This document shows, one piece after another, positions 4,156 through 19,569 of a stretch of 64,000 nucleotides of DNA. The translations under genes and the position numbers were made by a program. The notes under the pieces were generated by a model. It worked only from the letters and a program-made list of their open reading frames with translations. It was not told where the DNA came from and did no database searches. Every line of letters starts with the position of its first letter. Positions within the stretch are counted from its first letter, which is position 1. Origin of the DNA: an uncultured Cytophagales bacterium. Lineage in GTDB: Bacteria > Bacteroidota > Bacteroidia > Cytophagales > JAAEPT01. Location of the stretch: NCBI GenBank assembly GCA_963815495.1, contig CAWFGW010000007.1, positions 193,531 to 257,530 on the forward strand, read 5' to 3'.

Positions 4156-5666
4156 CTTTACAACACTTATTCTATGGCTCCTTACATTCAGTGTATTTAG
4201 TCAAACTGTCCCACTGAAACATGAGTTTCGTGGACTTTGGGTAACAACAGCCTTTAATTTGGACTGGCCATCATCCAATGATAGTAGTCCGGAAGAGCAG
4301 CAAAAAGAATTTATTACCCTACTCAATAAACACAAATCACTGGGCATCAACACAGTAATAGTGCAGGTGCGCGCTGCTGCCGATGCTTTTTATGAAAGTG
4401 ACTATGAACCGTGGTCGGTGTGGCTGACAGGTGAACAGGGTAAAAAACCAAAACCCTATTGGGATCCACTCGCATTTATGACGGAAGAGTGTCATAAACG
4501 TGGAATGGAAATTCATGCATGGTTCAACCTGTTTCAGAGCAGTATCCCATGAGCGTTTTTTCAAACCAGACCGTCACCATGTTTCAAGAAAACACCCTGA
4601 GTGGACCTATAAAATTGGGGAAAAAATATTTTTTAACCCAGGTGAACCTGACTTAAGAGAATACCTCACTAAAGTGGTAATTGATTGTGTTCAAAAGTAT
4701 GATATTGACGGGGTGCATTTAGATGACTACTTCTACCCTCAAGAAATCAATGGCGATAAAATAGATGACGACAAGACCTTCAAAACGTATGGCGATGGTT
4801 TTAAAAACAAAGGCGATTGGCGAAGAGACAACATTAACAAGTTAATCAAAATGTTGTCTGATAGCATTCATGCTAAAAAGTCATACATGAAGTTTGGAAT
4901 AAGTCCTGCCTGTGTATGGCGACACAAACATGACGACAAATTGGGATCAAACACGGAGCGCGCACTTACCAGTTATGATGACCTCTATGCGGACTCTAGA
5001 AAATGGTTACAAGAAGGCTGGATTGACTACCTCGCGCCACAACTATATTATAGTACTTTACATAAACGTGTCAATTACAACAATTTGTTAAACTGGTATG
5101 ATCAAAACAGCTTTGAACATCATGTATACATCGGTTTAGCTTATTATAAAGCACATGCACCTGATGAAGAAGGTTGGCATGATGCCAAAGAACTGCCTCG
5201 ACAAATATCCTTATTGCGATCAAAAGAAAACATTCAGGGATTTAGTTTCTTTCGAGCAAGCTCATTTCATGTCAACCCTTTACGCTTGGAAGACACACTC
5301 AAAAAGATGAATAATTATTTCTGTGTGCCTCCACCGATGTTATGGTTGGATTCTATTCCTGCTCAAGCACCATCAAATTTACATCTCATTCAAAACCAGG
5401 ATGGTGTATTGTTGCATTGGGATGAACCAGGCGCAGCTTTAGATGGTGAAACTCCCAAGTATTATTTTGTGTATCGCATAAAAAGAGGTGAACTGTTTGA
5501 TATCGCGACAGCTCAAAAAATAATAGGGCTGCCTCGTAAAAATTCGTTTCTAGATAATAATATCACACCTAATACTGAATATTATTATGTAATTACGTCT
5601 GCGGATCGATTAAATAATGAGAGCACGCACTTTATAGGTGGTTTATTTAGGACCAAAACAGAATAA
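4145..5666 (+). pseudogene. Glycosyl-hydrolase-like 10 (GHL10/DUF187, YngK-like) secreted protein, interrupted by one frameshift
   Basis: ORFs 4145..4552 and 4500..5666 are two halves of one protein. The first carries EFRGLWVTTAFNLDWPS ... EIHAWFNL, and the second continues FRAVSHERFF... HPEWTY ... GVHLDDYFYP. The frame changes within about 4523-4540 (ttcaacctgtttcagagc). Confidence 0.7.
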
Positions 5667-5701
5667 TATTTCGTTTAGTTAGTTTATTTTTTTAAGTTTT
5701 A

Positions 5702-7526
5702 ATGTATAAAATGCTACGAATAAGAATTTTTACGACTTTATTACTTTACTGGACAGTAATCTCTGTTTTTGCAGTGAAGCCAGCTATCCTGACTGACTCA
5801 CTGCATGAATTATGTCTGGCTCGGGAGTATGTGGAGTATTTAGAAGATCCCACACAACGCTTATCTATTGACTATATTAAAACGCTTGAGTGATACTTCC
5901 TCCTTATTTATCCCAAGCACCGCGCAGGATTTAATTAATACAAACATTTCATCTGCCTATTGGCTTCGTTTTAAACTAAAAGATAATAGTTCCCAAATCT
6001 TTAGAATTGAGTTATTTGACTACAACATTGATGAAATCAGTATTTATTACCCCACTAGAGACGGAAGATATATTACCAAAGAGGCTGGCTTTAATTACAC
6101 TTTTTCCCAACGAGAGATTAACCATAAAAATGTAAGCTTTAAGATTCCCCCTTCTATAGATTCTAGCTATACCTACATCCGTTTTTTTTCTGAAAAGAAA
6201 AATGTACTCGAACCTATGGTGCGATCTTATGACCACACGTTAAATTATGCAATTAATGAGTACATTTTTTTTGGTTTAGTATATGGTCTTTTACTCCTCA
6301 TAATTCTTTACAACTTCATTTATTTCGTTGTATTAAACAAGGCATATTATCTCTACATTATTTTATATGGTATTGGCATTTTAATTTATATCATGAGTCA
6401 TGATGGAACTGGTTTTCAATATATTTGGAATAACTATCCAGCAATTAATAACTACACGGGAGAAATAGGGTTAACTATTAGCACGATTTCGCTTCTACTC
6501 TTTACCAATAGCTTCCTGCAATTAAAAGAACTTAACAAAACCTATTTTAACATAATACAATGGAGTATTTATGCTAAAATCTTGCTATTTATCATTCAAC
6601 TGATTTTTACTAATTATAAAATTCTGGAGGTTTTTGATTTAACTTTCACGCTTTTACTTTTATGGTTAGCGGTAAAATTATATTTAGAAAAAATCCACTC
6701 GGCTCGTTGGCTGGTTGTCGGATATTCTGTTCTAAACCTATCATTTATTATTACTGCTCTTGAACGGACTACCCTTATACCTTCGAGTTTATTCACTGTG
6801 TATGCTTCCAATTTCGGGATTATCTTACAATTTCTATTGTTATCAATTGGTATCGCTGAAACTGTAAAACAAGTTTACAAGGAAAAAGCTCAAGGACAAG
6901 AAAAACTTATTATCCAACTATGGAAAAACGAACGTCTATCTGAAAAAGTAAACCGCGAATTGGAACAAAAAGTGAAAGAAAGAACTATTGAATTGGACAA
7001 TCTAAATGAAAGTTTGAAGAAAAAAGACGAAGAAAATATTCGAATGAATATCGCATTAGATTTGGCGAATAATGAATTGAAAAAACACATGAGTTCCTTT
7101 GCTCAATCAACTGTTGCCAAAGAGTTTCTAAGTTTTGAAGAGTTTAAAAAAGCCTTCCCCGATGAGATTTCGTGTCAACGCTATTTAAAAGAACTCAAAG
7201 AAGAGAAAGGCTTTGTATGCAGTAAATGCAATAGCACTAAAACCATCAAAGGCAAAGATAAATTTGATGTTCGGTGTGCCCAATGTAATTATAATGAATC
7301 CTTGACTGCAAACACCATCTTCCATAGATCCAAAATAGGATTACAAAAGGCTTTTTATATGCTTTATGTCGTTTTTAATCAAAAAGATCAAACTAACGCA
7401 AAGGAATTAGCCGAAACGCTTTCTCTTCAAAATAGCACTACTCAAAACTTTAAGAACAAAACACTGCTGAGACTAAAAACTCTAAAAAGAAAAAATTCTT
7501 CTTGGGAAAAATTAATTATTGATTAG
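5702..7526 (+). pseudogene. 7TMR-DISM sensor fused to a coiled coil and an IS1595-type zinc-ribbon/HTH domain, interrupted by one frameshift
   Basis: ORF 5702..5893 holds a signal peptide and the start of a 7TMR-DISMED2-like ectodomain. ORF 5868..7526 holds the rest of the ectodomain (SSAYWLRFKL), seven hydrophobic helices, a coiled coil, and a C-terminal CQRYLKELKEEKGFVCSKCNS...VRCAQCNYNESLTANTIFHRSKIGLQKAFYMLY. That C-terminus matches the N-terminal Zn-ribbon of IS1595-family transposases, but no DDE domain follows. The frameshift lies within 5868-5893. Confidence 0.65.
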
Positions 7527-7981
7527 AGCGCCCATTGTTCTAACAACCCCATGAGTTCATGTTTTTTGCGAACTGAGACCGGAACATTCTCTCCATTATC
7601 CAACACTAAATATCCCCCATCGCTTTTCACATATTTCGAAATTGAGTTAATATTAATCACAAACGATTTGTGTACACGTAAAAACTCATCATCAGGTAAT
7701 TTATCTGCGATAGCTTTAATGTTTTTACTAACTAACATTTTATTACCATTTGTTAGATATACATGCGTATAAGAGCCTGAAGCTTCTGCATATTGAATGT
7801 CATCGATTTTTAAGAATAGACATTCTTGTTTGTCCATCACAATAATTTTTCTTTTTAGGCGATGCTGAATGGGGTTCTTAAATTCAAAAGTTTGACACTT
7901 TTCTCCTTCAATAGGTTCTTTCTTAATAAAAGTAGGTCTTAGATTCATGTCCCGGTTGTTTTTTAATTCTGAATTATACAT
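7523..7981 (-). CDS. Stand-alone LytTR-family DNA-binding protein (no receiver domain)
   Basis: 152-aa ORF. FLKIDDIQYAEASGSYTHVYLTNGNKMLVSKNIKAIADKL...FLRVHKSFVINI matches the LytTR domain pattern. The N-terminal 45 aa are too short for a receiver domain. Confidence 0.8.
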   Translation of the reverse strand: MYNSELKNNRDMNLRPTFIKKEPIEGEKCQTFEFKNPIQHRLKRKIIVMDKQECLFLKIDDIQYAEASGSYTHVYLTNGNKMLVSKNIKAIADKLPDDEFLRVHKSFVININSISKYVKSDGGYLVLDNGENVPVSVRKKHELMGLLEQWAL

Positions 7982-8185
7982 AGTGGAATCAAACTAAGAA
8001 TAGAAAACCAAGTAGTGAAAATTAGCTATAGAAATTATCAAAAAATGGGTTTAAATAGCTGAGAATTTTCATGATAAAAGAATATTTCAATGACGCCAAA
8101 AACATGCTTAAAAACCCAAAAAAGACAGATTTTAAATTAAAAAAAAAGTTGAAAGACGTAAAAATTAATGGAGTAAAAAACTGAA

Positions 8186-9155
8186 TTACCAAAAAGATTT
8201 AGGACAGGTTTGCGGTTTCATATTGAAATCATATTTTAAGGTGATTTCATGGCTACCAGAAGTATATTGATTGATTTTAGAAACGGTGTAATCATACGAG
8301 TAGGCTATGTCAAAAATACCAGCATCATGAGCATTCAACCGTATTCCTGCTAATAATATAAAGGAGTCTAAATTTCTATAGGAGCTTCCTATCCAATAGT
8401 CTTTGTAGAAGTGAAATTTCATATTTAAATCCAAGGAAGGTAGTGAAGCGTTCCCCCCATATTTTAACATGATTGAAGGTACTAAATAGTGCTTAACCAC
8501 AGGGCTAGTTTGGTGCCACAAGGGTATTTTGTAGCCAGAAGTCAAATAATAGTGATGAACTAAATTTCCTTGCGAATTTTCTGTCTCAATAAAGTTAACT
8601 GAACGTTGAAATAGTTGGTTGATGGATAAACCAGTAAAAAAACGTCCATCATAGATCCAGAAACCAAAGCTAGCATCAGGAACTCGCTTTGAAATCAAGT
8701 TTACTGCTTCACCTTGTTGATCAAAATTCACTTCACTGAAATCTAACTTCACTTCTGTCATACCCAAAAACACGCCTGCTGCTAGTCGTACATCTTTATA
8801 AAGAGGGAAGTTATAGCTATATGAACCCATCATCGTTGTTTTGCTGATAGGTCCTGTTCTGATCGTTAAAGGCGATGCCTCCTATGGCATGAATCGGGTT
8901 ATTTTTATTTAGTCCAGGCTTTCGTTCGACTCCAATAGGAGCACTGCCGCTAATGTAATAGGAAGTGGGTCCACCTTTAAAATTCACCCATTGTTTACGG
9001 TAGCCTATTGCCAAATCCAAATCACCATCAGTACCGCCTACAGCCGGATTTAAGACATATTGATTGACCATGTATTGGGAAAACTGAACACGTTGCTGAC
9101 CAAACCCGTGCAGCGAGAAAGAAAATGCCAAAAGAAGGTAGAGCGATAACTTCAT
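8186..9155 (-). pseudogene. PorP/SprF-family T9SS outer-membrane protein, interrupted by one frameshift
   Basis: ORF 8817..9179 (true start probably MKLSLYLLLAF at 9155) carries QRVQFSQYMVNQYVLNPAVGG...LAIGYRKQW, typical of PorP/SprF. Another frame reads TGPISKTTMMGSYSYNF, continuous with ORF 8186..8833. The frame change is near 8860-8880. It lies directly downstream of a type-B CTD gene, which is the canonical pairing. Confidence 0.8.
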
Positions 9156-9157
9156 TT

Positions 9158-12100
9158 TTATTCGATAATTAATAACCAACCACTTTCAGAAAAATCAGTA
9201 TGATCGGTGCTACCTAAAAAATCAATCACGTAATAATAGGTTCCAAAAGGTACTTTTGTACCATTGGAATAGCCATCCCACGGGGTTTGATACCCATCAT
9301 CATCTTCAAAAAGGGTATCACCCCAACGATTGAAAATTTTCACATGAGTATGCAGGGTATTTAGGTAAGCCACGAATCACCCATGTATCATTTAAACCAT
9401 CGTTATTGGGCGAAAAGGCATTCGGTATATTTACTGCTTTATAGTTTCGAATTGTAATACTTGAACTTGACTCACAGCCTTGTCCTACGGGACCTGTAAA
9501 CACTGTTACTGGGTAAGTAGTCGTTACATTTTCATCCTGAATAGTATAGATTGGATTTTGAACTAATTCTTGGTTAACATCATAAGATAAAAAGCCAGGG
9601 GTTGTAGAACGGTAACTTAAATAATTATCTTCTTCCCAATGGATTAGTGAAACCGTATCATATTTCAAATCATCAATCTGAAGGGGCAATTGAATTTCCT
9701 TTTGATTACCATATGTCACATCCATGAACTCGATTGGAAATGAAGTAAACACTTGTTCATATATTTTTATAGTAATGGAATCGGTGTGAGACGGACAATA
9801 ATCATTGGAAACAGTTAAAAAATATTCACCCGATGCTGTGGGATGTTTTAAATCAAAAGGTACAATAGTGGATTCCGAAGGATAAAAGTTCAGTGACCAA
9901 ATTTCCACTCATAGTTAGAAATCTCCTCATTCTGAACACCTTTCAATGTGATTACCCTATCCGTTTCACAGATGATGGTATCCGAAGCTTTAATTTCAGC
10001 AAAAGGCATTTTTATTACGTCTTGAAACACCAGGTTAGAAACTGCTGTATCTTCATATAAGCATTTATAATTCGAGCGCACCTTTACATAAATAGACGTA
10101 TCAATGCTTGTGTTTAAGTCAAAATAAGGCAAGCTAAAATCGGTGTTAAGCAACTCACCCTTTTTATTGAAAAAATAATATTCAGGAGCATCCCCAGCAG
10201 CAAAATTAGTATGCGTTTGAAAACGAACACTTGTCCCGACACAAACAGGTAACATTTCATCCAGCGACACTTCTGGATAATAAGCCTGCTCTGGCACAAG
10301 TGTTAAAGCAGCTTTGGTTACAGGGCATACACCATTAGAGGTAATCCACTCCGCCACTAAGGTGTCTTCAATACTTAAAAAATTTGTAACTAAAGATGAA
10401 GCATCGTTTTCTTCTATTTCAATATCCCCAGTATTTTTTATTATCGTCCAACTACCATTACCAATAGCTGGAATATTTCCAGTCATTCGTTTATCATCAT
10501 CAGTGATACAGTAAACCAGCGTATCAGTAAGCGCATTGGAAACAAGAGCTTGTGTAGGTTTCAAATCGACTGGAATTTCAAAGTTACCGATATCCCCCAC
10601 ACAGCCTTCCCTGGTTGTTTCAACCACACTTCCTACTATATTCACGTTTCCAGCTATAAAGTGAATGGAGTCACGCTGGTCATCTTGATTAAAAACCTGA
10701 GCTCCGTTGTCAATCGCCCACGTAAAGGTACTTTCATCAAACCCAGAGACATATAACGAATCGTTGAAAGTTTCACAAACCGCATTAATAGGAAAAGGCT
10801 GTGGCGCTATTGGTGTAGTATCTACCACAACTTTTATTGGCGACAACTCACTTTCGCACAACCAATTTTTCTGACTCACAAAAAAGGAATCAACAGTGAC
10901 CTTGCGATAAAAATCAGGTTTTTGGGCAAGTAAAATAGTATCGCCACTATACCAACGAATGGAATTGAGCGGGTCGGTGGTTAGCACAAAGTCAGGCAAA
11001 GTCTCTACCTTTTGGCAATAGCGTATGGTGTCTTGTACTAAAGGTGCATCAGGTACATTGACGACTTCTACCTGACGAACTAGTGTATCACGGCAACCTT
11101 CCATGCTTGTAAATTCATATTTAACATCATAAAATCCTTCTGTTGCTGGGGGAATAAAATAGCCATTGCTTAAGGTTCCAGTACCTGAAAAGAAGCCACC
11201 TTCTGGGCTAACGTCTTGAATTTTTATGGTATCAGAAGATTCGCATGTTGGAGCTACGGGAGAAAAATCTACTTCCACATAATCATGTACAATAGTTTTA
11301 GCTTTTGCTCTACCTACTTCTGTTCCATCCAGACTGGTTATTTTCGCATAATAATCACTACTGTCAATCAAACTTATAGGTAGTGTTAAAGGAATTGTAA
11401 AATTACTATCGCTAAACCATTCCACCTTAGAGGTTACACCACCAATTACATGCGTATTAAACTCGGATAAATCAAAGCTGGAATAAACAGCGGGATTACT
11501 TTCGACATCCGAGCAGATTTTAAAAAGTGTATCTGTTGCATTCAAAGAACAAGGAAACACTTCTAAGGTATCCGTTGTGGTACAGTATTTTTGAGTGACG
11601 GTTAAGACGTATTTCCCTGCTGTTTTAACCGTCACAGCAGCGCTTAAATTATCAGGTAAAAATGGTTCACCTGAAGGCCCTTCCCATGAAAATGAAGTAT
11701 CTGCAGTAGTTGTAGAACCGAGAAGATTTGCCTCACCAGTAATACAGTCTAATTTAACATCGAGGCCAGCATCCGCTGTAGGCACGATTCCTGAAGTAGT
11801 GACAAGAACGGTATCCGTCATGTTGCATCCGCCATCTTTAGCTTTTAATACATATTCACCCGGAATATCTACATCGGTAAACAATGCTTCGGAGTTTGGT
11901 AAATAATTTACACCTGTTGGACCTTCCCAGAAATAGCTATCCGACTGAGACAGTGCTGAAACGGCTTTTAAAGAAGTATGTGTATCGCCACATTCGATGT
12001 TTGCATCTGGTCCGGCACTAATGCTATCCACCACAATTGAATCAGCTGCTGATAAAGTAATTTGACAACCTTCTGGACTTACCAGAATTAAGTTGGGAAG

Positions 12101-15100
12101 GTATTTTCCTGATTTTTGGTAATAATGATTAACTGAATCGCTATTGCTTAAATTAGAAGTGGGCGATAAATCACCAAAATCCCAAAAATAACCTGCTATA
12201 TTGCTACCCTCCACTTTTGCTACTAATGGTTCTCCTACACATAAAAAATCATCATCTACAAATAATTCTCCAACAGGCCCTTTTATGCGAATTGGCTTGG
12301 TAAGGGTATCTTTACAGCCATCAAGACCAGTGGCGATTAACCGCACGTTATAAGTACCTGCCGTATTGTAAAAATGACTTACTTCAACATTATTAGTCGC
12401 TGAAGTTTCCTCATCGCCAAAATCCCATGCATAAGAGGAACTATAAGTGGAAGTACTTACAAACGGTAAAGAAAAGGTACCTACACATTTTGCCGTATCA
12501 GCTCCTACATCAAAACTGGCAACAGGTTTTACCAATTTCACATAGTTGCTTCGTGAAATAGAATCCACACATCCACCATCATCGGTAACGACTAATTTTA
12601 CAGAAAACTTACCCGTATTCTCATATATGTGGGTATGAGAACTTCCTGAATAGCCATAGACCACCTCCCCATCACCATAAATCCATTTGAATTGATTAGG
12701 ATTGGATACCAATGCGTTAGAATTATTATAAAACCGAATGTTAAACAAATTACATCGTAAGGTGTCTCGCGTATAAAAATTTGCTTTAGGACTAAATGAT
12801 TCTGCCGTCAACGAATAGGAATCAGAACATCCTAGTTCGTCAGTCACGGTTAAAGTCGGAGTATATTTTTTATAATAGGAAGTTTGACTATAGGAATGGG
12901 AGACATCTGACGGATCAGTAGCAATTTCTTCGTGTCCATCACCAAAGTTCCACTTCCATTCAGTAATGGCTGTTGCACCATTTGCTAAGGAGCTATCAGA
13001 AAAATTGATGGTAAAATCACCACTGCAAAAACTGGAAGAATCCATTCCAAACTTAGCTTCTGGTCCTTTAACCACCACTGGTACTGGATCTTGGATAGAA
13101 TCTTTACAACCAAATTTATCCGTGATAATCAATTTCGGATAAAACACTCCTGTATCGGTGTAGATGTGATCAGTATTACCTTTTAAATATGTTCCGTATC
13201 GGGTAAAATTTAAAGTATTGTTAATCACCTTTCGTTCCGTACTATCACCATAGTCCCATACGTAAGATGCAATGTTGCTAGAATCTATCCCAACTGGATT
13301 AAAATTAACTTTTAACCCTTTACAAATGTTATCTTTATCTTTTGAAAAGGCCGCCTTTTCATCCACCGCAACCACCCTCACCTTATGTTCGAACGTAGTT
13401 AACGTGGTGAGGTCTCTTAAAGTAGTGGTAACCAAAAACTTTTTTTTAACCCCATCAGCAGGAAAGGTAAATGTAATGGGGTTTTCATCAGTCGTTCTTA
13501 CATCACCATCAAAATCCCAGGAAATGACTTCAGCATTTTGTGTAGTGTCTATGAATGTGAAGGTGTATTTTTGATCACAACCTCCTGAGCGATCTACCGA
13601 CATGGGACCACCGCCCCCACCTCCGCCTCCACCGCCTCCGCCTCCTCCATCGTCATCGCAAAACTCGTTCACGGTTACGTTTTGAGGATCAGCTACAGCT
13701 TCACAACCTTGTTCAGTAATTATTCTAACTCCGACAGTATAACTACCAGCAGTAGAAAAAGTATGTGTCGCCTCATTTGTAGCGAGTGTTTCAGTTTGTC
13801 CATCACCAAACGTATACACATAACTAGCAACGGGGTCCCGTGACGTAGGTGTAGCTTTCACTGTAATCGGAAAAGGAGCACAACCTTCAGGGTTTCCTAA
13901 ATTCATTTTTACCAATGGAGCACTATTTCTAATATATCTATACACGGTTGAGTTACTACATCCTGCCTCGTTAGTTGCCGTTAAACTAACTGTAAAATTG
14001 CCAAAGCTTGTATAGGAATGACTTACAGGGTCAGATGAGGTAACTGTTTCAGTGGTACCATCACCAAAGTTCCAGTTATATTCACTCGCATTTTGGCTGG
14101 TGTTTGTAAACGTAACTTCGTGAGGTATTTGACATCCATTTGGTAAATCAACTGCTAAACCCGCTGTTGGTGTCGGTAACACGTTTACCTCTCCTTCTGC
14201 TGTATCACTACTGCAACCGGAGAACGTATTAAAGTTCACATATTTCACTTTCCAGGTTCCTGGTGTTGTAAAGGTATGGTTTCGAGATTTCCCTAAATAG
14301 AAGTTAGTGTTTCCTTCAATCATCCACTTCCCCTGGTTACTTAATCCTGTTGCATCCGTTTCTGATCTTAAAGCTCCAGTCGCTCTCACACAGACATTTT
14401 CCGGAACAGTGATGGCAGCCTCTGGTTTTCCAATGTAGACATTTTTATCGCCACTAGTGGCGACAGATGTGGAGCAGTTCTCCGTCTCATTAATAGCTTG
14501 TAATTTAACCGTATAAATGCCTGGTGCTGTGTATTCGTGGGTGAGTGTTTCTTCGTTGTTTTCTACTATCGAACCGTCTCCAAAATCCCATTTAAAATTG
14601 AAATTGTCATTTTCAGGAGAAAAATTACTAAAGGTCACGGTATGAGGGGCTTCACAATTAAAATTATCTTCTACCCAAATTGCTGGTGTAATTTTGTTGT
14701 AAACCTTTATAGATTGTGCTATTGATAATGAATTGATACAACCATAACTATTTGTTAGAATAAGTTTGGGTAAGTAATTACCAACAGAATAAGTATGAGT
14801 TGGTGCTTCTAATTCAGTAAAAACATCTTTGGTGCCATCGCTGTAGTTCCATTCCCATTTAACGATTTCTCCATCTCCCGCAGTACTATGATCTTCGAAT
14901 TTTACATTTAATGGTGGACACCCCTCATTAACATCAAAAGAAAAGTCTACGGTGGGTAACGTATAGACACGAATATCTTTAGTAATTGTAGCGGTGTTAG
15001 CCCCATCTCCTACAGTTAACTTTACTTCATAAGTTCCGGGAGTTAAGAAGTTAGTGGTAGGCTTTACTTCATTTGTTGACCCATGGGGACTTCCATCTAC

Positions 15101-15292
15101 TTTATTAAAAAACTCCCACTTATAAGTTGTTACAGGTCCTGTTGAGATAGATGCATCTAATTGAACGACACGCATATCACATGAATCACCTGGAGTCGTG
15201 ATCGAAAAATTGGCTGTTAATTGTCCGTGACCGTTGAAACTTATCGTGATAAATAAAAATAGAATGAGAACATAGGGATATAACTTATTCAA
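9158..15292 (-). pseudogene. Giant PKD-repeat adhesin with T9SS type-B (gliding-motility-associated) C-terminal sorting domain, two frameshifts near the 3' end
   Basis: ORFs 9890..15292, 9318..9908 and 9158..9373 join into one roughly 2,045-codon frame. It has a signal peptide and at least 12 PKD-like repeats (W.[FW][DN]FGDG...H.Y...G.Y.V.L). The C-terminus reads NAFSPNNDGLNDTWVIRGL ... KIFNRWGDTLFE ... GTYYYVI, the type-B CTD signature. Frame changes lie near 9890-9908 and 9340-9373. Confidence 0.8.
13607..13648 (-). repeat. 14-codon poly-glycine tract inside the PKD adhesin
   Basis: Coding strand reads TGC GAT GAC GAT (GGA GGA GGC GGA GGC GGT GGA GGC GGA GGT GGG GGC GGT GGT) CCC ATG, giving C-DDD-G14-PM. 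All four Gly codons are used. Confidence 0.9.
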
Positions 15293-15379
15293 TTTTTTAT
15301 CTCAATTTTTTGAATATCAGGTTGTGTTAATTGTTTAGTGTACTTTGAATCATCGGAACACTAAATATCATTAAATGAT

Positions 15380-15435
15380 GCTTTCCCTTCTTTATGAATC
15401 ATGATAACACACCAATAAGAAAGGAAAGCTTTTTT
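15380..15435. terminator. Long-loop hairpin between the lipase-like gene and the PKD adhesin gene (possible terminator)
   Basis: GCTTTCCCTTCTT (15380-15392) pairs with AAGAAAGGAAAGC (15417-15429) with one mismatch, followed by TTTTTT on the plus strand. The flanking genes are both on the minus strand, so the role is uncertain. Confidence 0.35.
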
Positions 15436-15450
15436 AGACCTCAATATTAT

Positions 15451-18400
15451 TTACTTCGTGATAATTACCTTTTTCGAATAGCTTTCAGCAAGTGTGTTTA
15501 ACTGAACTACATATACTCCTGGTGTAATGAAACTTGGGAAATCAACGTTAATCGTATTTTCACCTTGGTGAAGTGTTATGTTACTCGCTTTAATTAACTC
15601 CCCTTGTAAGTTTTTAATTAATACTTGAGCAGATGAGGTCGCTGTCAGTGCGCTATAGGTTATGGAAATATTCCCTCCTTTATTCGGGTTAGGATAAATG
15701 TTAAAATCTTTCTTATCAAAATCGTCTTTGTCCACAGCTACTTCAATATCATCTGCAGGAAGTACTTCCCTTATTCGTGAGATCAAATTCACCGAAGCCA
15801 ACGAATCAATAATTCTCAAACGAAAATACATTTTTGTGTTGGCTGTAAACTCATCTTTAAAAAGGTAGCTGGTTTGTTCATAAGAAGTACCTGCAGCTGT
15901 GACAGTAAATAATTCAGTGAAGTCTATTCCATTTTCACTCTCTTCAATCACAATACTTTTCGTACGGTATTCCTGTAAAGTATTCCAATCAAAGATCAAC
16001 TCATTATCATCCGTTACACTTACATAAAAATCACCAAAAATCGTTTTGGTCAAGTTCTGGTTTTCATATACTACAAATTGTAAGGAGTCTATTTTATTAT
16101 CATATACTGCTACCAAATAGGTTTTACCTTGTTTTAAAGCTCTTACACTGTATGGTGTATCGAATTTCGCAACAGTCGTGTCAGTTAGGTAATAGAGCAC
16201 GGAAGGGTTAGTAGTAAAGTTTCTGACAGTAGAATCTGAATATAGTCCTTGCAAACTGATACTATACCTTTCCATTTGTTCCATTTCTACTACTTCTGAA
16301 AAAGAAGAGAAATAAATTTTAGTAAGATTAATTGAATCTGGAATTTCAACATTAAAGGTTAGAGAGTCCATGAAAAAATATTGGTCTTCTGTAGCACCAT
16401 ATGCTAACACAGTAATTTCTCCAAAATAATTAGTTGGAATAATATAGCTAAACAAGTTTGTGTCAGTAAATACTTCGATGTCATCTATTGTATTTTCAAA
16501 ATCCTCATTTGGACTTTCGAACATTATGAAACCAGTGGTGATTTTTTTTGCAATTAATTTCACCATAATTGTATCTCCTGGAAAGAAACTTTTTAAAGAA
16601 TCAGTTTGATCAAAATAAAACTCTACTCCTTCAGGAACTTCATCTGAACTTATCCTTGCTCCATTATTGACAGTCTCTTTTTCGTCTGCACCAAACAAGT
16701 TATAAATTAATTGATTCTTTGTATCTTCTCTTGGAGGGTTTAGACCTTCAAGAGAAAAGTTCGATGTAGGGCTATAGACATTTTGACCTAACAGTTCTAT
16801 TACTCTATTTTGAATAACGGGTGACGTTGCAACACCCTCTGAGCCTACTGGTCTAAATATATCTATGTGAGCTATATTGTACTCATGCATCGTAGTGATA
16901 TATGGATAAGGTAATCCTGCTTCCATACTACTTCTTGGTACTATAAAATCACTGTTTTCACCATTAAAAACTTTACGCATAAAATCATCTATAGCATTTG
17001 CTCCTCCTTTTTTTATACCATAGTGTAAAATTGACAGTTTAGTCAATTTGTTGAAGTTATATATATAACGACTTAGAGCAACTGATAAGTCAGCACTATC
17101 CAAATCAATTTTAGATAATTTAAAATCAGTTGCTACAGCATGAATAGGAACTTGGTATTCTTTTAATTTCACAAGGTAATCATGACTATTTAAATCGGTT
17201 ATAAACCCCTTATCAACCTGTAATACTTTTGCTCCATTTTTCTCTGTTTGATCTTCAGGTGCAGCTGACATGCCTGCTTTAGTAAATATAGTTCCTAGTT
17301 TAAACTCTATATTTTTATAAACCGGTATAGGGAATGTAGTTATCGGTACTTTTATAGTTACAATTCTTTCGTCCAGTACTGCGTTGGCGAGTTGAGAACC
17401 AGCATGTGGAGTATTTAAAGTTATCAATGAATGAATATCAAAATTATATTTTATTCCGGGTTGTAGCTCTTCGATATAGGCTCTGGAATACAAACCTCCC
17501 CTACTATGCACCACTAAACTTACTTTTCCAGCAGATAGGTTGTTTGAACTACAAATTTTTCTCAATCGATTGATACCATCAGGTATTTGATGTGCATCTC
17601 CAGCGAATGGTTTTTCTGCCGTATTTCCACCATCATCCTTATGCAGTTTATATATTTTAAGAACTTTAAAAGGTTGGTAGTTCCCATTTTCGCGGAGTGC
17701 TTTTTCAAAACTTATTAAGGAATTAATATTACTCCATACTCCATGAACTAACAACACTGGGGGAGTGGTGATTTTCACAAAGTTTTTGAAGAGAGGTTCG
17801 CTCAAAGCATTCTTCTTGCCAATAGTAAAATCGTAAATTGCGTCTTCGCCTTTACTCACAAAGGCTTCATCCACATACATAGGATGACGGAAGATAATAT
17901 CAACATATTCTTTTTTATCGTCTTCATAATCTTCTAACGGTTTAAGAATAAACTTACCATATTTTGCTGTATCTTCATTTCTGTATTTTCCTGCCAAACC
18001 AAACAAATAATTTTCTTCTTGCTGATAAAACCCGTCAAAATCATCCGTATAATATCTAAAAACTGATGAAGTAGTTCCATCTGCAGAAAACATAGGTAGG
18101 TCATCTTGATTATAAGAAATATTGTTCATCCCTTTTAATGTGGTCATGGATGACATTTCGATATAGTTTTCATCTTTTGAATCAAATGGTGCTTCTTTTC
18201 TATCTATATGAAAAACAGTTAAATCTGAAGGAATAAAAATTTGATCTACACCTTGGTCTGTCACTACATACACATACCCCCCTCCGGTAGTGACCCCTTT
18301 AATGTTGTTAGAAGAAAGACCGTCTAACGTAGTAATTAAAGTATACGAAGAATCTTGTTTCAAGTCACCATGTCCATCATACACTAACAATCCGCCTGTA

Positions 18401-19569
18401 GTACCTAAAAATACTCTCCTACCTGAACTGGCAATTAAACCTGGTGTTAAATTAAATGAAGGAATTTTCCCATTTGCAAACATTGAAGATACTTCATTTT
18501 CACCTGTTGTCTTGTTATAATGACTTAACGTATCTATATATACCCATTCCGCATTACTATATCCAAAGTTTTTCATCATAGCAAACCCTCTGTTTTGATT
18601 AAAGGTAAGCCAAGGTGTGTCATTTTTTTGAAAGTGGATTGAATAAGGTCTTGGGCTTGCAAAGCTATTCGTAAAAGGTAATTCAGGGGCATTCGTATAG
18701 TCTAGCTTCTCATAAAAATTTCCATTCAAATCATACTTAATGATGGCTGTGTTTGCGATGTTTCCACTTACATCTTCATAGGCTCCTACACTTACCCATA
18801 CTTGATCTTTGCCTACTCCCACCGATAAATGTTGGCGCGTTTGAGCTACTTTATCGATGGGCGCATTAACGGTATAAGCTGGATATTTGCTTTCATCTAC
18901 ATTAGATCGGTTATCAAAAACTGGTTTATCAGCTTTTTTCATGCCCAACCCTCCTGGAGTGACGAAATATCCCCCCCTAACTGAATAGTTATCATATTGA
19001 TTAGTAAATGGATTAAAAATATAATCAATATATCCTGTAGTTAACAAATCATGATAACCATGTGCTGACCATACTGTTCCATTTTTATCAACAGCTATTG
19101 ACTTACAATCACGAGTGGGTGTTCCGTCATTTTTTTTTGCTGGCATCAACATGCCTCTAGCCACTACTTTATCTCGTTCCGCCACATAATATTGAGCTTC
19201 TGTGGAACTTGTTGTTAAAAAATGATGAACACCACCTCCAGATGCTGTTCCACCTCCCATACCTCGAGAACCTACCCACACACTGGTTCTACCATTAACT
19301 GTGGGTGTAGCTATCGATTGAATTTGATATTTGTTAAAGTTTGCATCCGAAGAAAATAAAGAAAGCCCACCTGCTTCAATTATACCAGTAGCAGTATCTG
19401 ACGATGCTTTCCACAGTCCTTCACTTCGAGTTCCAGCCCATAAATTACCTTCAGCGTCATAGGAGAGACAAGTGAAACTAGTCCCTGTACCAATCTTTTT
19501 CACTGTTTGAGCTTGTGATTGAATAAAAACAGTTAAAATTAAAAGAGTACTTGTTAATAGATGTCTCAT
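15451..19569 (-). CDS. T9SS-secreted multidomain protein: beta-propeller repeats, alpha/beta-hydrolase (family-I-lipase-like), BIg-like domains, type-A CTD
   Basis: 1372-aa ORF with a signal peptide. The N-terminal region has repeated W.G[TS]/GL.. two-component-regulator-propeller-like units. The lipase core has PVLLVHG, nucleophile-elbow VVHSRGG and TLNTPHAGS. The C-terminus FNIYPNPNKGGNISITY...GVYVVQL...KKVIITK is a Por/T9SS type-A sorting domain. Confidence 0.75.
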   Translation of the reverse strand: MRHLLTSTLLILTVFIQSQAQTVKKIGTGTSFTCLSYDAEGNLWAGTRSEGLWKASSDTATGIIEAGGLSLFSSDANFNKYQIQSIATPTVNGRTSVWVGSRGMGGGTASGGGVHHFLTTSSTEAQYYVAERDKVVARGMLMPAKKNDGTPTRDCKSIAVDKNGTVWSAHGYHDLLTTGYIDYIFNPFTNQYDNYSVRGGYFVTPGGLGMKKADKPVFDNRSNVDESKYPAYTVNAPIDKVAQTRQHLSVGVGKDQVWVSVGAYEDVSGNIANTAIIKYDLNGNFYEKLDYTNAPELPFTNSFASPRPYSIHFQKNDTPWLTFNQNRGFAMMKNFGYSNAEWVYIDTLSHYNKTTGENEVSSMFANGKIPSFNLTPGLIASSGRRVFLGTTGGLLVYDGHGDLKQDSSYTLITTLDGLSSNNIKGVTTGGGYVYVVTDQGVDQIFIPSDLTVFHIDRKEAPFDSKDENYIEMSSMTTLKGMNNISYNQDDLPMFSADGTTSSVFRYYTDDFDGFYQQEENYLFGLAGKYRNEDTAKYGKFILKPLEDYEDDKKEYVDIIFRHPMYVDEAFVSKGEDAIYDFTIGKKNALSEPLFKNFVKITTPPVLLVHGVWSNINSLISFEKALRENGNYQPFKVLKIYKLHKDDGGNTAEKPFAGDAHQIPDGINRLRKICSSNNLSAGKVSLVVHSRGGLYSRAYIEELQPGIKYNFDIHSLITLNTPHAGSQLANAVLDERIVTIKVPITTFPIPVYKNIEFKLGTIFTKAGMSAAPEDQTEKNGAKVLQVDKGFITDLNSHDYLVKLKEYQVPIHAVATDFKLSKIDLDSADLSVALSRYIYNFNKLTKLSILHYGIKKGGANAIDDFMRKVFNGENSDFIVPRSSMEAGLPYPYITTMHEYNIAHIDIFRPVGSEGVATSPVIQNRVIELLGQNVYSPTSNFSLEGLNPPREDTKNQLIYNLFGADEKETVNNGARISSDEVPEGVEFYFDQTDSLKSFFPGDTIMVKLIAKKITTGFIMFESPNEDFENTIDDIEVFTDTNLFSYIIPTNYFGEITVLAYGATEDQYFFMDSLTFNVEIPDSINLTKIYFSSFSEVVEMEQMERYSISLQGLYSDSTVRNFTTNPSVLYYLTDTTVAKFDTPYSVRALKQGKTYLVAVYDNKIDSLQFVVYENQNLTKTIFGDFYVSVTDDNELIFDWNTLQEYRTKSIVIEESENGIDFTELFTVTAAGTSYEQTSYLFKDEFTANTKMYFRLRIIDSLASVNLISRIREVLPADDIEVAVDKDDFDKKDFNIYPNPNKGGNISITYSALTATSSAQVLIKNLQGELIKASNITLHQGENTINVDFPSFITPGVYVVQLNTLAESYSKKVIITK

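What the first reader, a model, noticed from the sequence alone, without database searches (positions are those of the whole stretch)
5702..7981. 7TMR-DISM receptor fused to a domesticated IS1595 transposase zinc-ribbon/HTH, converging on an orphan LytTR gene
The sensor has the 7TMR-DISMED2 ectodomain and a 7-TM module, which normally feed kinase, cyclase or phosphatase outputs. Here the cytoplasmic part is a coiled coil followed by CQRYLKELKEEKGFVCSKCNS..VRCAQCNY..TANTIFHRSKIGLQKAFYMLY and a helix-turn-helix-like tail. That is the N-terminal DNA-binding module of IS1595-type transposases, without any DDE catalytic domain. This would make a membrane-tethered one-component DNA-binding receptor, a fusion I do not recognise as described.

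Its 3' end overlaps by 4 nt (7523-7526) the 3' end of a stand-alone LytTR DNA-binding protein that lacks a receiver domain. The two may form a non-phosphorelay signalling pair next to the adhesin/PorP locus. One caveat is that the sensor gene carries a frameshift near its 5' end.
Basis: partly seen in the sequence, partly recalled or inferred. Interest (0 to 1): 0.55.

Follow-up and report, generated by a model that had tools for sequence, protein, structure and literature searches.

The report
Membrane sugar-sensor with transposase-derived DNA-binding tail
This is a bacterial membrane receptor whose inner end is a DNA-binding module borrowed from a jumping-gene enzyme; it belongs to a large, undescribed family in Cytophagales that appears to switch genes on or off directly, without a phosphorylation relay.

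Summary
Window 5702-7526 (+) encodes a 7TMR-DISMED2 ectodomain, a 7-TM bundle, an ~85-residue helical stalk and a 135-residue Cys4 zinc-ribbon plus helix-turn-helix module. That module is 38% identical, without gaps, over 121 residues to the N-terminus of true IS1595 transposases. No DDE domain lies in the window or in 85 related loci.

The fusion is not a one-off. The 150 best-scoring representatives are mostly 580-650 aa proteins with the module at the C-terminus, and 425 genome stretches encode relatives, mainly in Cytophagales. dN/dS against a 95%-identical relative is 0.04.

The frameshift is one extra T at 5886-5887. It is one of seven single-base insertions in four neighbouring genes, so it is probably an assembly error.

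The family splits into two clades:
- **Window's clade:** a stand-alone LytTR gene abuts the sensor in 10 of 11 loci with different flanks. A conserved ACGTCTTT motif lies upstream of LytTR in all 9 loci scanned.
- **Larger clade:** the sensor sits directly upstream of SusC/SusD genes in 49 of 80 loci, with a conserved 21-bp element between them.

The same module also ends HTCS-like Reg_prop/Y_Y_Y sensors. The best reading is a membrane-tethered one-component regulator. It resembles SusR and BguR in function but has a new, transposase-derived DNA-binding domain. I found no paper describing it.

The parts
5702..5887 (+). 5' part of the sensor gene. It encodes the signal peptide and the first strand of the 7TMR-DISMED2 ectodomain, and in this assembly is read in a different frame from the rest of the gene.
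   Evidence: ORF 5702..5893. Weak DISMED2 match to profile positions 2-19. Collinear with the 5' end of the intact 604-aa L001 gene.
5886..5887 (+). Frameshift site: TT here against a single T in the 95%-identical relative. Probably an assembly insertion error.
   Evidence: Alignment to L001. Six further uncompensated 1-nt insertions lie in the neighbouring genes, at ~4532, 8862, 9155, 9353, 9875 and 9895. All of these genes are intact in L001.
5898..6212 (+). 7TMR-DISMED2 periplasmic beta-sandwich sensor domain (residues 11-115 of the 552-aa ORF).
   Evidence: Pfam PF07696, E 1.1e-17. AF2 strands 30-120, pLDDT 83-93.
6228..6872 (+). Seven-transmembrane module (AF2 helices between residues 121 and ~335).
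   Evidence: Pfam PF07695, residues 131-330, E 1.5e-35. AF2 model, pLDDT >90.
6873..7121 (+). Cytoplasmic helical stalk that continues from TM7 (residues ~336-418). It contains the conserved VNRELEQKVKERT junction at which relatives carry a SpoIIE phosphatase instead.
   Evidence: AF2 shows a single helix 313-418 with a low-confidence hinge at 404-416. L357, E364, L365, R372 and T373 are invariant. The 48% identity to the SpoIIE-output protein P0034 ends at residue 377.
7122..7523 (+). IS1595-transposase-derived module (residues 419-552): two leader helices, a Cys4 zinc ribbon (C451, C454, C470, C473 at nt 7218-7286) and a three-helix HTH (residues 492-538). There is no DDE domain.
   Evidence: The four cysteines are invariant. 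PF12760 hits 26 of 30 members. BLASTP to IS1595 transposase P0141: 38% over 121 aa, E 1e-27. AF2 pLDDT 92, pTM 0.84. No DDE found. dN/dS 0.06.
7523..7981 (-). Stand-alone LytTR DNA-binding protein (152 aa, no receiver domain). It converges on the sensor gene, and the two 3' ends overlap by 4 nt.
   Evidence: Pfam PF04397, residues 55-147, E 4.4e-21. A LytTR gene is adjacent in 10 of 11 clade-A loci. dN/dS 0.044.
8141..8165 (-). Conserved motif TTTTTACGTCTTTCAACTTTTTTT, 168 nt upstream of the LytTR start. It is a candidate operator or autoregulatory site.
   Evidence: It is the only match to ACGTCYTTHWA in the 64-kb window. The same motif, in the same orientation, lies 118-218 nt upstream of LytTR in 9 of 9 clade-A loci. 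A second copy lies 63-64 nt further upstream in three of them.

Best explanation
The gene encodes a membrane-tethered one-component transcription regulator.

**Shown.** The architecture runs from signal peptide to periplasmic 7TMR-DISMED2 beta-sandwich, then a 7-TM bundle. TM7 continues as an ~85-residue cytoplasmic helix, followed by a Cys4 zinc-ribbon plus HTH module. That module is homologous to the whole N-terminal DNA-binding region of IS1595 transposases and has no catalytic domain. The fusion is old, widespread in Cytophagales and under purifying selection. The module sits where close relatives carry a SpoIIE/PP2C phosphatase output.

**Inferred.**
- An extracytoplasmic ligand, probably a glycan, changes the packing of the 7-TM bundle and of a dimeric stalk.
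- That change sets the spacing or orientation of two zinc-ribbon/HTH modules, so that they bind or release an operator while the protein stays in the inner membrane. ToxR, CadC, ChiS, SusR and BguR work or are proposed to work this way.
- In the larger clade the target is the adjacent susC/susD operon, through a conserved 21-bp element (AATCGTTTGAAATCAATGTTT).
- In the window's clade the conserved partner is the abutting stand-alone LytTR gene. The sensor most likely controls LytTR expression or activity, and LytTR in turn controls the neighbouring T9SS cargo/PorP-SprF adhesin genes.
- This would be a two-tier circuit without phosphorelay.

The frameshift in this assembly is most likely a sequencing insertion, not a dead gene.
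For: **Architecture and homology**
- Domain hits.
- AF2 full-length model with a single helix 313-418 leading into the module.
- C-terminal model at pLDDT 92.
- BLASTP to a true IS1595 transposase, E 1e-27 over 121 aa.
- Residues nearly invariant in the receptors (C19, K27, the four Cys, S61, T63, T66, F68, H69, F79, L101, T107, F111, K114) are also present in transposases P0121, P0141 and P0143.

**Not an IS**
- No DDE domain in the window or in 85 loci.
- Conserved single-copy contexts.
- dN/dS 0.04-0.06.

**Spread**
- About 60 full-length 90%-identity clusters.
- The best 150 representatives are mostly 580-650 aa with the module at the C-terminus; 459 representatives score E<1e-30.
- 425 genome stretches encode relatives.

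**Output-domain position**
- 48% identity to a 7TMR-DISM-SpoIIE protein, ending at the stalk junction.
- The same module also ends Reg_prop + Y_Y_Y sensors.

**Regulatory context**
- SusC-like gene ~320 nt downstream on the same strand in 49 of 80 loci; SusD-like gene in 42 of 80.
- The 21-bp element occurs 24 times at <=3 mismatches in 1.07 Mb. All are on the sensor's strand, and 23 of 24 lie ~110-230 nt after the sensor stop.
- LytTR is adjacent in 10 of 11 clade-A loci with at least four different flanks.
- A conserved motif lies upstream of LytTR in 9 of 9 loci.

**Functional precedent**
Against: - No DNA binding has been shown for this module, nor to my knowledge for any IS1595 N-terminus by structure. 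Foldseek found no significant PDB match (best E 0.88), and the profile found no related solved structure.
- The window protein's own PF12760 score is below the gathering threshold.
- The conserved DNA elements could belong to promoters or to other regulators. The LytTR-upstream motif could be a LytTR autoregulatory site rather than the sensor's operator.
- The enrichment p-value is inflated, because the pattern was derived from the same regions.
- Many clade-B loci are orthologous, so part of the 21-bp conservation could be phylogenetic inertia.
- In the window's clade there is no SusC/SusD, so the ligand is unknown.
- The gene is frameshifted in this assembly.
- One clade-A locus (P0030) has a convergent 112-aa ORF with no Pfam LytTR hit.
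Confidence: 0.65

Rival explanations
1. LytTR regulatory system (LRS)-like pair. The 7-TM receptor would act mainly as a membrane inhibitor that sequesters the stand-alone LytTR regulator and releases it on signal. The zinc-ribbon/HTH module would serve as a protein-protein interface rather than a DNA binder.
For: - LRS consist of a receiver-less LytTR regulator plus a transmembrane inhibitor, with repeats upstream of the operon promoter (PMC6193735).
- Here LytTR lacks a receiver and is adjacent to the membrane protein in 10 of 11 clade-A loci.
- In the Sporocytophaga-type loci the order is LytTR then membrane protein on one strand, as in LRS.
- A conserved motif, duplicated in three loci, lies upstream of LytTR.
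Against: - The same C-terminal module, with the same conserved residues, is present in the much larger clade that has no LytTR neighbour. It is also present in Reg_prop/Y_Y_Y sensors, stand-alone 144-aa proteins and active transposases. A LytTR-specific binding role therefore cannot be its general function.
- In most clade-A loci the genes converge and so are not an operon.
- The repeat spacing (63-64 nt) is unlike the closely spaced LRS repeats.
Confidence: 0.15
2. The protein is activated by regulated proteolysis. Ligand binding triggers cleavage in the stalk or hinge, releasing a soluble zinc-ribbon/HTH regulator of about 135 aa that acts away from the membrane.
For: - A low-confidence hinge at residues 404-416 separates the stalk from the module.
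- Free-standing 144-aa homologues exist in conserved non-IS contexts, so the module can work as a soluble protein.
Against: - No protease gene is conserved next to the sensor.
- The stalk is highly conserved and continuous with TM7, as in receptors that signal by helix movement.
- Exchange with a SpoIIE output at the same junction argues for conformational coupling.
Confidence: 0.1
3. The module still serves transposon biology. It would bind IS1595 ends, for instance as a membrane-anchored inhibitor or recruiter of related insertion sequences, rather than regulating host genes.
For: - Closely related true IS1595 elements (41% identity to the module) live in the same order, for example the multicopy Cyclobacterium element P0117 plus its DDE ORF.
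- N-terminal transposase fragments are known inhibitors in some IS families (own knowledge, e.g. IS1 InsA).
Against: - Fusion to an extracytoplasmic glycan-type sensor, tight linkage to SusC/SusD or LytTR, and locus-specific conserved DNA elements all point to host gene regulation.
- No IS1595 copy occurs in the window or in the 85 loci.
Confidence: 0.04
4. Recent IS1595 insertion or a decayed chimeric pseudogene. On this reading the C-terminal module is a transposase remnant fused by accident, and the frameshift marks a dead gene.
For: - The gene is frameshifted in this assembly.
- NCBI labels fragments of such proteins 'transposase' (P0093, P0127).
Against: - The fusion is conserved from 25% to 100% identity in dozens of clusters and hundreds of genomes.
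- dN/dS is 0.04 for the whole gene and 0.06 for the module.
- There is no DDE remnant anywhere.
- The gene is intact in the 95%-identical L001.
- The frameshift is one of seven 1-nt insertions in four adjacent genes, the pattern expected of assembly errors.
Confidence: 0.02

Closest known systems
7TMR-DISM receptors (for example LadS/RetS-type histidine kinases, and GGDEF, cyclase and PP2C/SpoIIE-output members)
   Same: The 7TMR-DISMED2 ectodomain and 7TMR-DISM_7TM module match Pfam well above threshold. Residues 7-377 are 48% identical to a 7TMR-DISM-SpoIIE protein.
   Different: The cytoplasmic output is not an enzyme. It is a zinc-ribbon/HTH module, with no kinase, cyclase, GGDEF or phosphatase domain. 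No paper in the searchable library links 7TMR-DISM to IS1595 or to PULs.
IS1595-family transposases (ISXO2-like): N-terminal zinc-ribbon + HTH region
   Same: 38-42% identity over about 120 residues, covering the leader helices, the Cys4 ribbon and the HTH. The conserved residues are shared.
   Different: No DDE_Tnp_IS1595 domain, no multicopy behaviour and a conserved chromosomal context. The module is at the C-terminus of a membrane receptor.
BguR and SusR: membrane-spanning one-component PUL regulators of Bacteroidota
   Same: A periplasmic sensor, a membrane span and a helical linker lead straight to a DNA-binding domain with no phosphorelay. The gene lies next to susC/susD-type genes, with a conserved motif in the intergenic region. 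Some relatives even carry BguR's Reg_prop/Y_Y_Y sensor type.
   Different: BguR has one TM helix and a GerE/LuxR HTH. This protein has a DISMED2 sensor, seven TM helices and a transposase-derived zinc-ribbon/HTH. The window's own clade is linked to LytTR and T9SS adhesin genes rather than to a PUL.
LytTR regulatory systems (HdrRM, BrsRM)
   Same: A receiver-less LytTR regulator is encoded next to a membrane protein, with conserved repeats upstream of the LytTR gene.
   Different: The membrane partner here is a large 7-TM receptor with its own putative DNA-binding domain. The genes usually converge rather than forming an operon, and the repeats are 63-64 nt apart.
ChiS-family and ToxR/CadC-type membrane-bound transcription factors
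   Same: These are inner-membrane sensors that bind DNA directly. The ChiS-type DNA-binding domain has also been found fused to 7TMR-DISM in Proteobacteria (bioRxiv 10.1101/2020.11.18.389122).
   Different: The DNA-binding fold and its origin are unrelated, and the phylum is different.

Membership tests
7TMR-DISM receptor family | 7TMR-DISMED2 extracellular domain | tested here: met
   PF07696, E 1.1e-17, 64.7 bits against a cutoff of 22. Beta-sandwich in the AF2 model.
7TMR-DISM receptor family | 7TMR-DISM_7TM seven-helix membrane module | tested here: met
   PF07695, E 1.5e-35, 123.5 bits against a cutoff of 29. Seven helices between residues 121 and 335.
7TMR-DISM receptor family | Cytoplasmic enzymatic signalling output (kinase, cyclase, GGDEF or PP2C) | tested here: not met
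   No such domain was found at E<=1. A zinc-ribbon/HTH module replaces it. Relatives with the same sensor carry SpoIIE.
IS1595-family transposase | N-terminal Zn_ribbon_IS1595 (PF12760) with four Cys | tested here: met
   The window protein scores 20.7-23.6 bits, below the 25.4-bit cutoff. However, 26 of 30 family members hit the model (best E 2.2e-9), the four Cys are invariant, and BLASTP to transposase P0141 gives E 1e-27.
IS1595-family transposase | HTH region following the ribbon | tested here: met
   The ungapped alignment runs through residues 64-124 of the module. AF2 shows three helices at 75-121 with pLDDT ~90. Foldseek gave only weak, non-significant HTH and homeodomain hits.
IS1595-family transposase | DDE_Tnp_IS1595 catalytic domain (PF12762) | tested here: not met
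   The protein ends 14 residues after the HTH. tblastn with three DDE domains found nothing below E 0.6 in the window or in 85 loci.
IS1595-family transposase | Mobile, multicopy element bounded by terminal inverted repeats | tested here: not met
   Chromosomal contexts are conserved across genera. By contrast, the true IS copy P0117 is found on 13 contigs with an adjacent DDE ORF.
Membrane-tethered one-component regulators (SusR/BguR/ToxR type) | Extracytoplasmic sensor, membrane span and cytoplasmic DNA-binding domain in one polypeptide, with no phosphorelay domains | tested here: met
   The DNA-binding role of the module is inferred from homology.
Membrane-tethered one-component regulators (SusR/BguR/ToxR type) | Encoded next to the regulated operon, with a conserved operator-like element | tested here: inconclusive
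   Met for the larger clade: SusC/SusD in 49 and 42 of 80 loci, and a 21-bp element found almost only in that intergenic region. In the window's clade the neighbour is LytTR, with a conserved upstream motif. Which protein binds these elements is unknown.
Membrane-tethered one-component regulators (SusR/BguR/ToxR type) | Sequence-specific DNA binding and ligand-dependent transcription control | not testable with these tools
   Needs EMSA, DAP-seq and genetics.
LytTR regulatory system (LRS) | LytTR regulator without a receiver domain | tested here: met
   152 aa, with PF04397 at residues 55-147 only.
LytTR regulatory system (LRS) | Co-transcribed operon of the LytTR regulator followed by a small transmembrane inhibitor | tested here: not met
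   In the window and in 6 other loci the genes converge. Same-strand order occurs only in Sporocytophaga-type loci. The partner is a 600-aa receptor.
LytTR regulatory system (LRS) | Membrane protein inhibits the LytTR regulator by direct interaction | not testable with these tools
   No complex prediction or experiment was available.

The most novel reading that the evidence does not exclude
The N-terminal zinc-ribbon/HTH of IS1595 transposases has been domesticated in Bacteroidota into a general signal-output DNA-binding domain. It would replace the entire phosphorelay on at least two unrelated sensor types: 7TMR-DISM receptors and HTCS-like Reg_prop/Y_Y_Y sensors. It also exists as a free 144-aa regulator. 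Together these would form an unrecognised major class of membrane-embedded one-component regulators of polysaccharide utilisation loci in Cytophagales. In the window's clade, the receptor would form a phosphorelay-free two-protein circuit with a stand-alone LytTR regulator that controls T9SS-secreted adhesins.
Probability: 0.45. Interest if true: 0.75.

Novelty: new variant of a known kind. Interest (0 to 1): 0.62.

Why it matters
**PUL regulation outside gut Bacteroides.** Regulators of polysaccharide utilisation loci are poorly known outside gut Bacteroides. A 2026 preprint presents the first marine membrane one-component PUL regulator, BguR, as a previously unrecognised mechanism. The family described here would add a second, structurally different class for soil and aquatic Cytophagales. 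It comes with predicted operators that can be tested directly.

**Transposase domestication.** It is also a clear bacterial case of a transposase DNA-binding domain recruited as a signalling output, which is well known in eukaryotes but rarely documented in bacteria.

**Annotation.** PF12760 is used as a transposase marker (for example in PMC13639185), and NCBI names fragments of these receptors 'transposase'. These host regulators are therefore likely to be miscounted as mobile elements.

Tried and rejected
- **Solved structures.** The module profile against PDB sequences gave only generic zinc ribbons at E>0.01. Foldseek of the high-confidence model against PDB gave nothing better than E 0.88. 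No structural homologue can be cited.
- **NCBIfam.** It gave no meaningful family for the sensor.
- **LytTR across the whole family.** LytTR is absent from 77 of the 80 genome loci, so the pairing is not a family-wide feature.
- **Terminal inverted repeats of the related Cyclobacterium IS (L091).** I looked for these to compare with the candidate operators. The repeats found were weak and ambiguous, so I dropped this line.
- **Similarity between the clade-A motif (ACGTCTTT...) and the clade-B 21-mer.** Only a short TTGAAA overlap appears in some copies. I judged this to be chance.
- **The clade-A motif as an ECF-sigma promoter.** No consistent -35 AAC element lies at the right spacing (by inspection).
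- **Known RNA families.** Rfam found none in window 5000-9500 or in a clade-B intergenic region.
- **Context of a Reg_prop/Y_Y_Y + module protein (P0233).** It was uninformative because the gene lies at a contig end.
- **The 112-aa ORF next to P0030.** It is only marginally LytTR-like (pairwise E 0.003, no Pfam hit).
- **Literature.** Searches for 7TMR-DISM with IS1595, 7TMR-DISM with PUL, IS1595 domestication, and PF12760 found no description of this fusion.
Full report
**1. What is in the sequence**

The ORF list shows three relevant ORFs:
- 5702..5893 (+, 63 aa, hydrophobic signal-peptide-like start).
- 5868..7526 (+, 552 aa).
- 7523..7981 (-, 152 aa).

The two long ORFs converge, and their stop codons overlap by 4 nt (7523-7526).

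Pfam assigns the 552-aa product as follows:

| Domain | Residues | E-value | Note |
|---|---|---|---|
| 7TMR-DISMED2 | 11-115 | 1.1e-17 | |
| 7TMR-DISM_7TM | 131-330 | 1.5e-35 | |
| Zn_ribbon_IS1595 | 431-475 | 4.2e-4 | 20.7 bits, below the 25.4-bit cutoff |

The 152-aa product is a LytTR domain (E 4.4e-21) with no receiver. NCBIfam adds nothing for the sensor.

**2. The frameshift**

- A 95%-identical relative from a Cytophagales MAG (L001) has one T where the window has TT at 5886-5887. It encodes an intact 604-aa protein.
- Over the shared 11.9 kb (93% nucleotide identity) the window carries seven uncompensated single-base insertions. All are in coding sequence, and they split four consecutive genes: GHL10, the sensor, PorP/SprF and a PKD-repeat adhesin. 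All four are intact in L001.
- dN/dS between the two genomes is 0.041 for the sensor, 0.060 for its C-terminal module and 0.044 for LytTR.
- This pattern fits assembly insertion errors, or at most very recent decay. The family itself is clearly functional.

**3. The C-terminal module is the IS1595 N-terminal region**

- The homologue search returned about 60 clusters of 600-650 aa that cover more than 95% of the query. Thirteen of them already carry a precomputed PF12760 hit.
- In an alignment of 45 members, C451, C454, C470 and C473 are invariant and much of the tail is nearly invariant.
- Of 30 isolated C-terminal modules, 26 match PF12760, with a best E of 2.2e-9.
- A profile of the module finds true IS1595 transposases carrying both PF12760 and the DDE domain PF12762 (P0121, P0141, P0143 and others) at E ~1e-38 to 1e-40.
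- The window's own module aligns to residues 8-128 of P0141 without a gap, at 38% identity and E 1e-27. The homology therefore spans the leader helices, the ribbon and the HTH.
- AlphaFold2 models the module at pLDDT 92 and pTM 0.84. It shows two helices, a three-stranded ribbon and a three-helix bundle.
- No solved structure resembles it significantly by sequence or by fold.
- tblastn with three DDE domains found no remnant in the window or in 85 related loci. The 'recent IS insertion' alternative is refuted.

**4. Whole-protein architecture**

The full-length model (pLDDT 84) shows:
- a beta-sandwich ectodomain;
- seven membrane helices;
- a single helix from TM7 through residue 418;
- a low-confidence hinge at 404-416;
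- the zinc-ribbon/HTH module.

With an N-terminal signal peptide and seven spans, the module is cytoplasmic. This rests on the established topology of the family and was not tested here.

Residues 7-377 are 48% identical to a 7TMR-DISM protein with a SpoIIE phosphatase output. The similarity stops at the conserved VNRELEQKVKERT segment of the stalk. The module therefore occupies the position of a bona fide signalling output.

**5. Spread and other architectures**

- The exhaustive profile search found 12,351 representatives at E<=1e-3 and 459 at E<=1e-30. Most of the best 150 are 580-650 aa with the module at the very C-terminus.
- The genome scan found 425 stretches. The best 80 all reach the C-terminus of the query. 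They come mainly from Cytophagales, often with several paralogues per genome.
- Nine roughly 1000-aa hits were scanned in Pfam. All nine carry Reg_prop repeats plus a Y_Y_Y domain, and the profile search places the module at the C-terminus of each; eight also reach PF12760 at E<=0.001. This is the periplasmic sensor type of Bacteroides hybrid two-component systems and of BguR.
- Stand-alone 144-aa versions sit in a conserved thioredoxin/radical-SAM/methyltransferase context with no DDE gene nearby.
- The 163-aa Cyclobacterium protein P0117 is the first ORF of a multicopy true IS with an adjacent DDE ORF.
- Active IS1595 elements and several domesticated forms therefore coexist in the same lineage.

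**6. Genomic context: two clades**

*Clade B (25-36% identity to the window protein)*
- In 49 of 80 loci a SusC-like gene of about 1000 aa starts ~320 nt downstream on the same strand. It carries CarbopepD_reg_2 and Plug domains.
- In 42 of 80 loci a SusD_RagB gene follows it.
- A PF10091 'glucoamylase' gene lies nearby in 12 loci, mostly just upstream.
- The sensor-susC spacer contains a 21-bp element, AATCGTTTGAAATCAATGTTT, inside otherwise unconserved DNA, 124-180 nt before the susC start.
- In 1.07 Mb of loci, all 24 matches at <=3 mismatches are on the sensor's strand, and 23 of them lie ~110-230 nt after the sensor stop.
- Short locus-specific repeats that covary between loci flank the core element.

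*Clade A (42-100% identity; includes the window)*
- A stand-alone LytTR gene is adjacent in 10 of 11 loci examined.
- In seven loci it converges on the sensor and abuts it, from a 4-nt overlap to a 4-nt gap.
- In four Sporocytophaga-type loci it lies upstream on the same strand.
- The flanking genes differ between loci: LGT/GHL10, Omp85, OEP/DUF748 and Polysacc_synt.
- The eleventh locus has a 112-aa convergent ORF with only marginal LytTR similarity.
- T9SS cargo, PorP/SprF and CHU_C or PKD giant proteins recur nearby, as they do in the window.
- All nine loci scanned carry a motif with consensus TTTTWACGTCTTTYAACTATTTTT, 118-218 nt upstream of LytTR and in the same orientation. A second copy lies 63-64 nt further upstream in three of them.
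- In the window the motif is at 8149-8159 (-). It is the only match in 64 kb.
- The pattern was derived from these same regions, so the nominal p-value is inflated. The positional consistency is the real evidence.

**7. Mechanism**

The best-supported reading is a membrane-tethered one-component regulator. Ligand binding at the DISMED2 domain would be transmitted through the 7-TM bundle and a probably dimeric stalk to two zinc-ribbon/HTH modules, which would then bind DNA near the membrane.

Support for this reading:
- the module's homology to a transposase DNA-binding region, with the conserved residues retained;
- its interchange with enzymatic outputs at the same stalk junction;
- its tight linkage to susC/susD with a private conserved element;
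- the experimental precedent of BguR, plus SusR and ChiS.

In the window's clade the immediate partner is LytTR. I cannot tell whether the sensor controls LytTR transcription, or sequesters the protein as LRS inhibitors do. The module's presence in LytTR-free clades argues that DNA binding is its general function. None of this is shown biochemically.

**8. Comparison with what is known, and novelty**

- The protein is a member of the 7TMR-DISM family by its sensor and membrane modules, but it lacks any of that family's known outputs.
- It is not an IS1595 transposase: it has no DDE domain and is not mobile. It is derived from one.
- It works like SusR and BguR-type regulators but shares neither sensor, membrane topology nor DNA-binding fold with them.
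- The architecture is visible in precomputed domain tables.
- Searches of 8 million full texts found no description of it.
- I rate it a new variant of a known kind. Interest is moderate to high because the family is large, is tied to glycan utilisation in environmental Bacteroidota, and is directly testable.

Noticed in passing
window ~4532, 5886, 8862, 9155, 9353, 9875, 9895: There are seven uncompensated single-base insertions relative to the 93%-identical L001. They split four consecutive genes (GHL10, sensor, PorP/SprF, PKD adhesin) that are intact in L001. This suggests that the whole assembly carries insertion-type errors, so other 'pseudogenes' in the window should be treated with caution.
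   Followed up: partly
loci L013-L080, sensor-susC intergenic regions (e.g. L053 ~7754-7774, L038, L063, L077): A conserved 21-bp element, AATCGTTTGAAATCAATGTTT, lies 124-180 nt upstream of susC. It is flanked by a roughly 13-nt direct repeat (one copy just 3' of the core, one ~66 nt upstream) whose sequence differs between loci, with the two copies changing together. These repeats may be locus-specific operator half-sites.
   Followed up: partly
P0233, P0235, P0242, P0298, P0318, P0332, P0340, P0348, P0328 (~1000 aa): These are HTCS-like periplasmic sensors (Reg_prop repeats + Y_Y_Y) that end in the same IS1595-derived module instead of kinase, receiver and AraC domains. They look like BguR with a different DNA-binding domain. 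The one context examined (L094) was uninformative.
   Followed up: partly
L090 4001-4435 and L093 4001-4435 (P0149, P0163): Stand-alone 144-aa zinc-ribbon/HTH proteins are annotated by sources as 'transposase'. They sit in a conserved thioredoxin/radical-SAM/methyltransferase neighbourhood with no DDE gene. They are probably free-standing domesticated regulators, and many such clusters exist.
   Followed up: partly
window 7122-7981 (3' ends of both convergent genes): Synonymous divergence from L001 is several-fold lower at the two abutting 3' ends (dS 0.16 for the sensor's module, 0.25 for LytTR) than in the 7-TM and stalk regions (0.92, 0.73). This could reflect a nucleotide-level constraint such as overlapping antisense transcripts, or a recent recombination event.
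   Followed up: no
L081 10220-10651 and L082 10038-10475: A second stand-alone LytTR paralogue lies ~3 kb from the first, next to PorP_SprF and after a T9SS-secreted S8 peptidase. In L081 it carries the same ACGTCTTT motif 198 nt upstream (10849). The window has only one LytTR gene in this region.
   Followed up: no
P0031, P0032, P0035, P0038, P0042 (529-530 aa): These are 7TMR-DISM proteins 42-45% identical to the window's sensor part. They have a C-terminal region of about 140 residues with no Pfam assignment, which may be yet another unrecognised output.
   Followed up: no
P0093, P0127, P0165, P0183 (names given by sources): Fragments of these receptors and the stand-alone forms are named 'transposase' or 'IS1595 family transposase' in NCBI records. 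PF12760 is also used as a transposase marker in mobile-element surveys (PMC13639185). This is a likely source of false mobile-element calls in Bacteroidota.
   Followed up: no
window 9318-19569 (-): Downstream of PorP/SprF on the minus strand lie a PKD-repeat protein of about 1800 aa (nine or more PKD_4 repeats) and a 1371-aa protein with a Por_Secre_tail and an esterase-like domain. This sprF/sprB-like T9SS adhesin cluster is the likely regulatory target of the LytTR/sensor pair.
   Followed up: no
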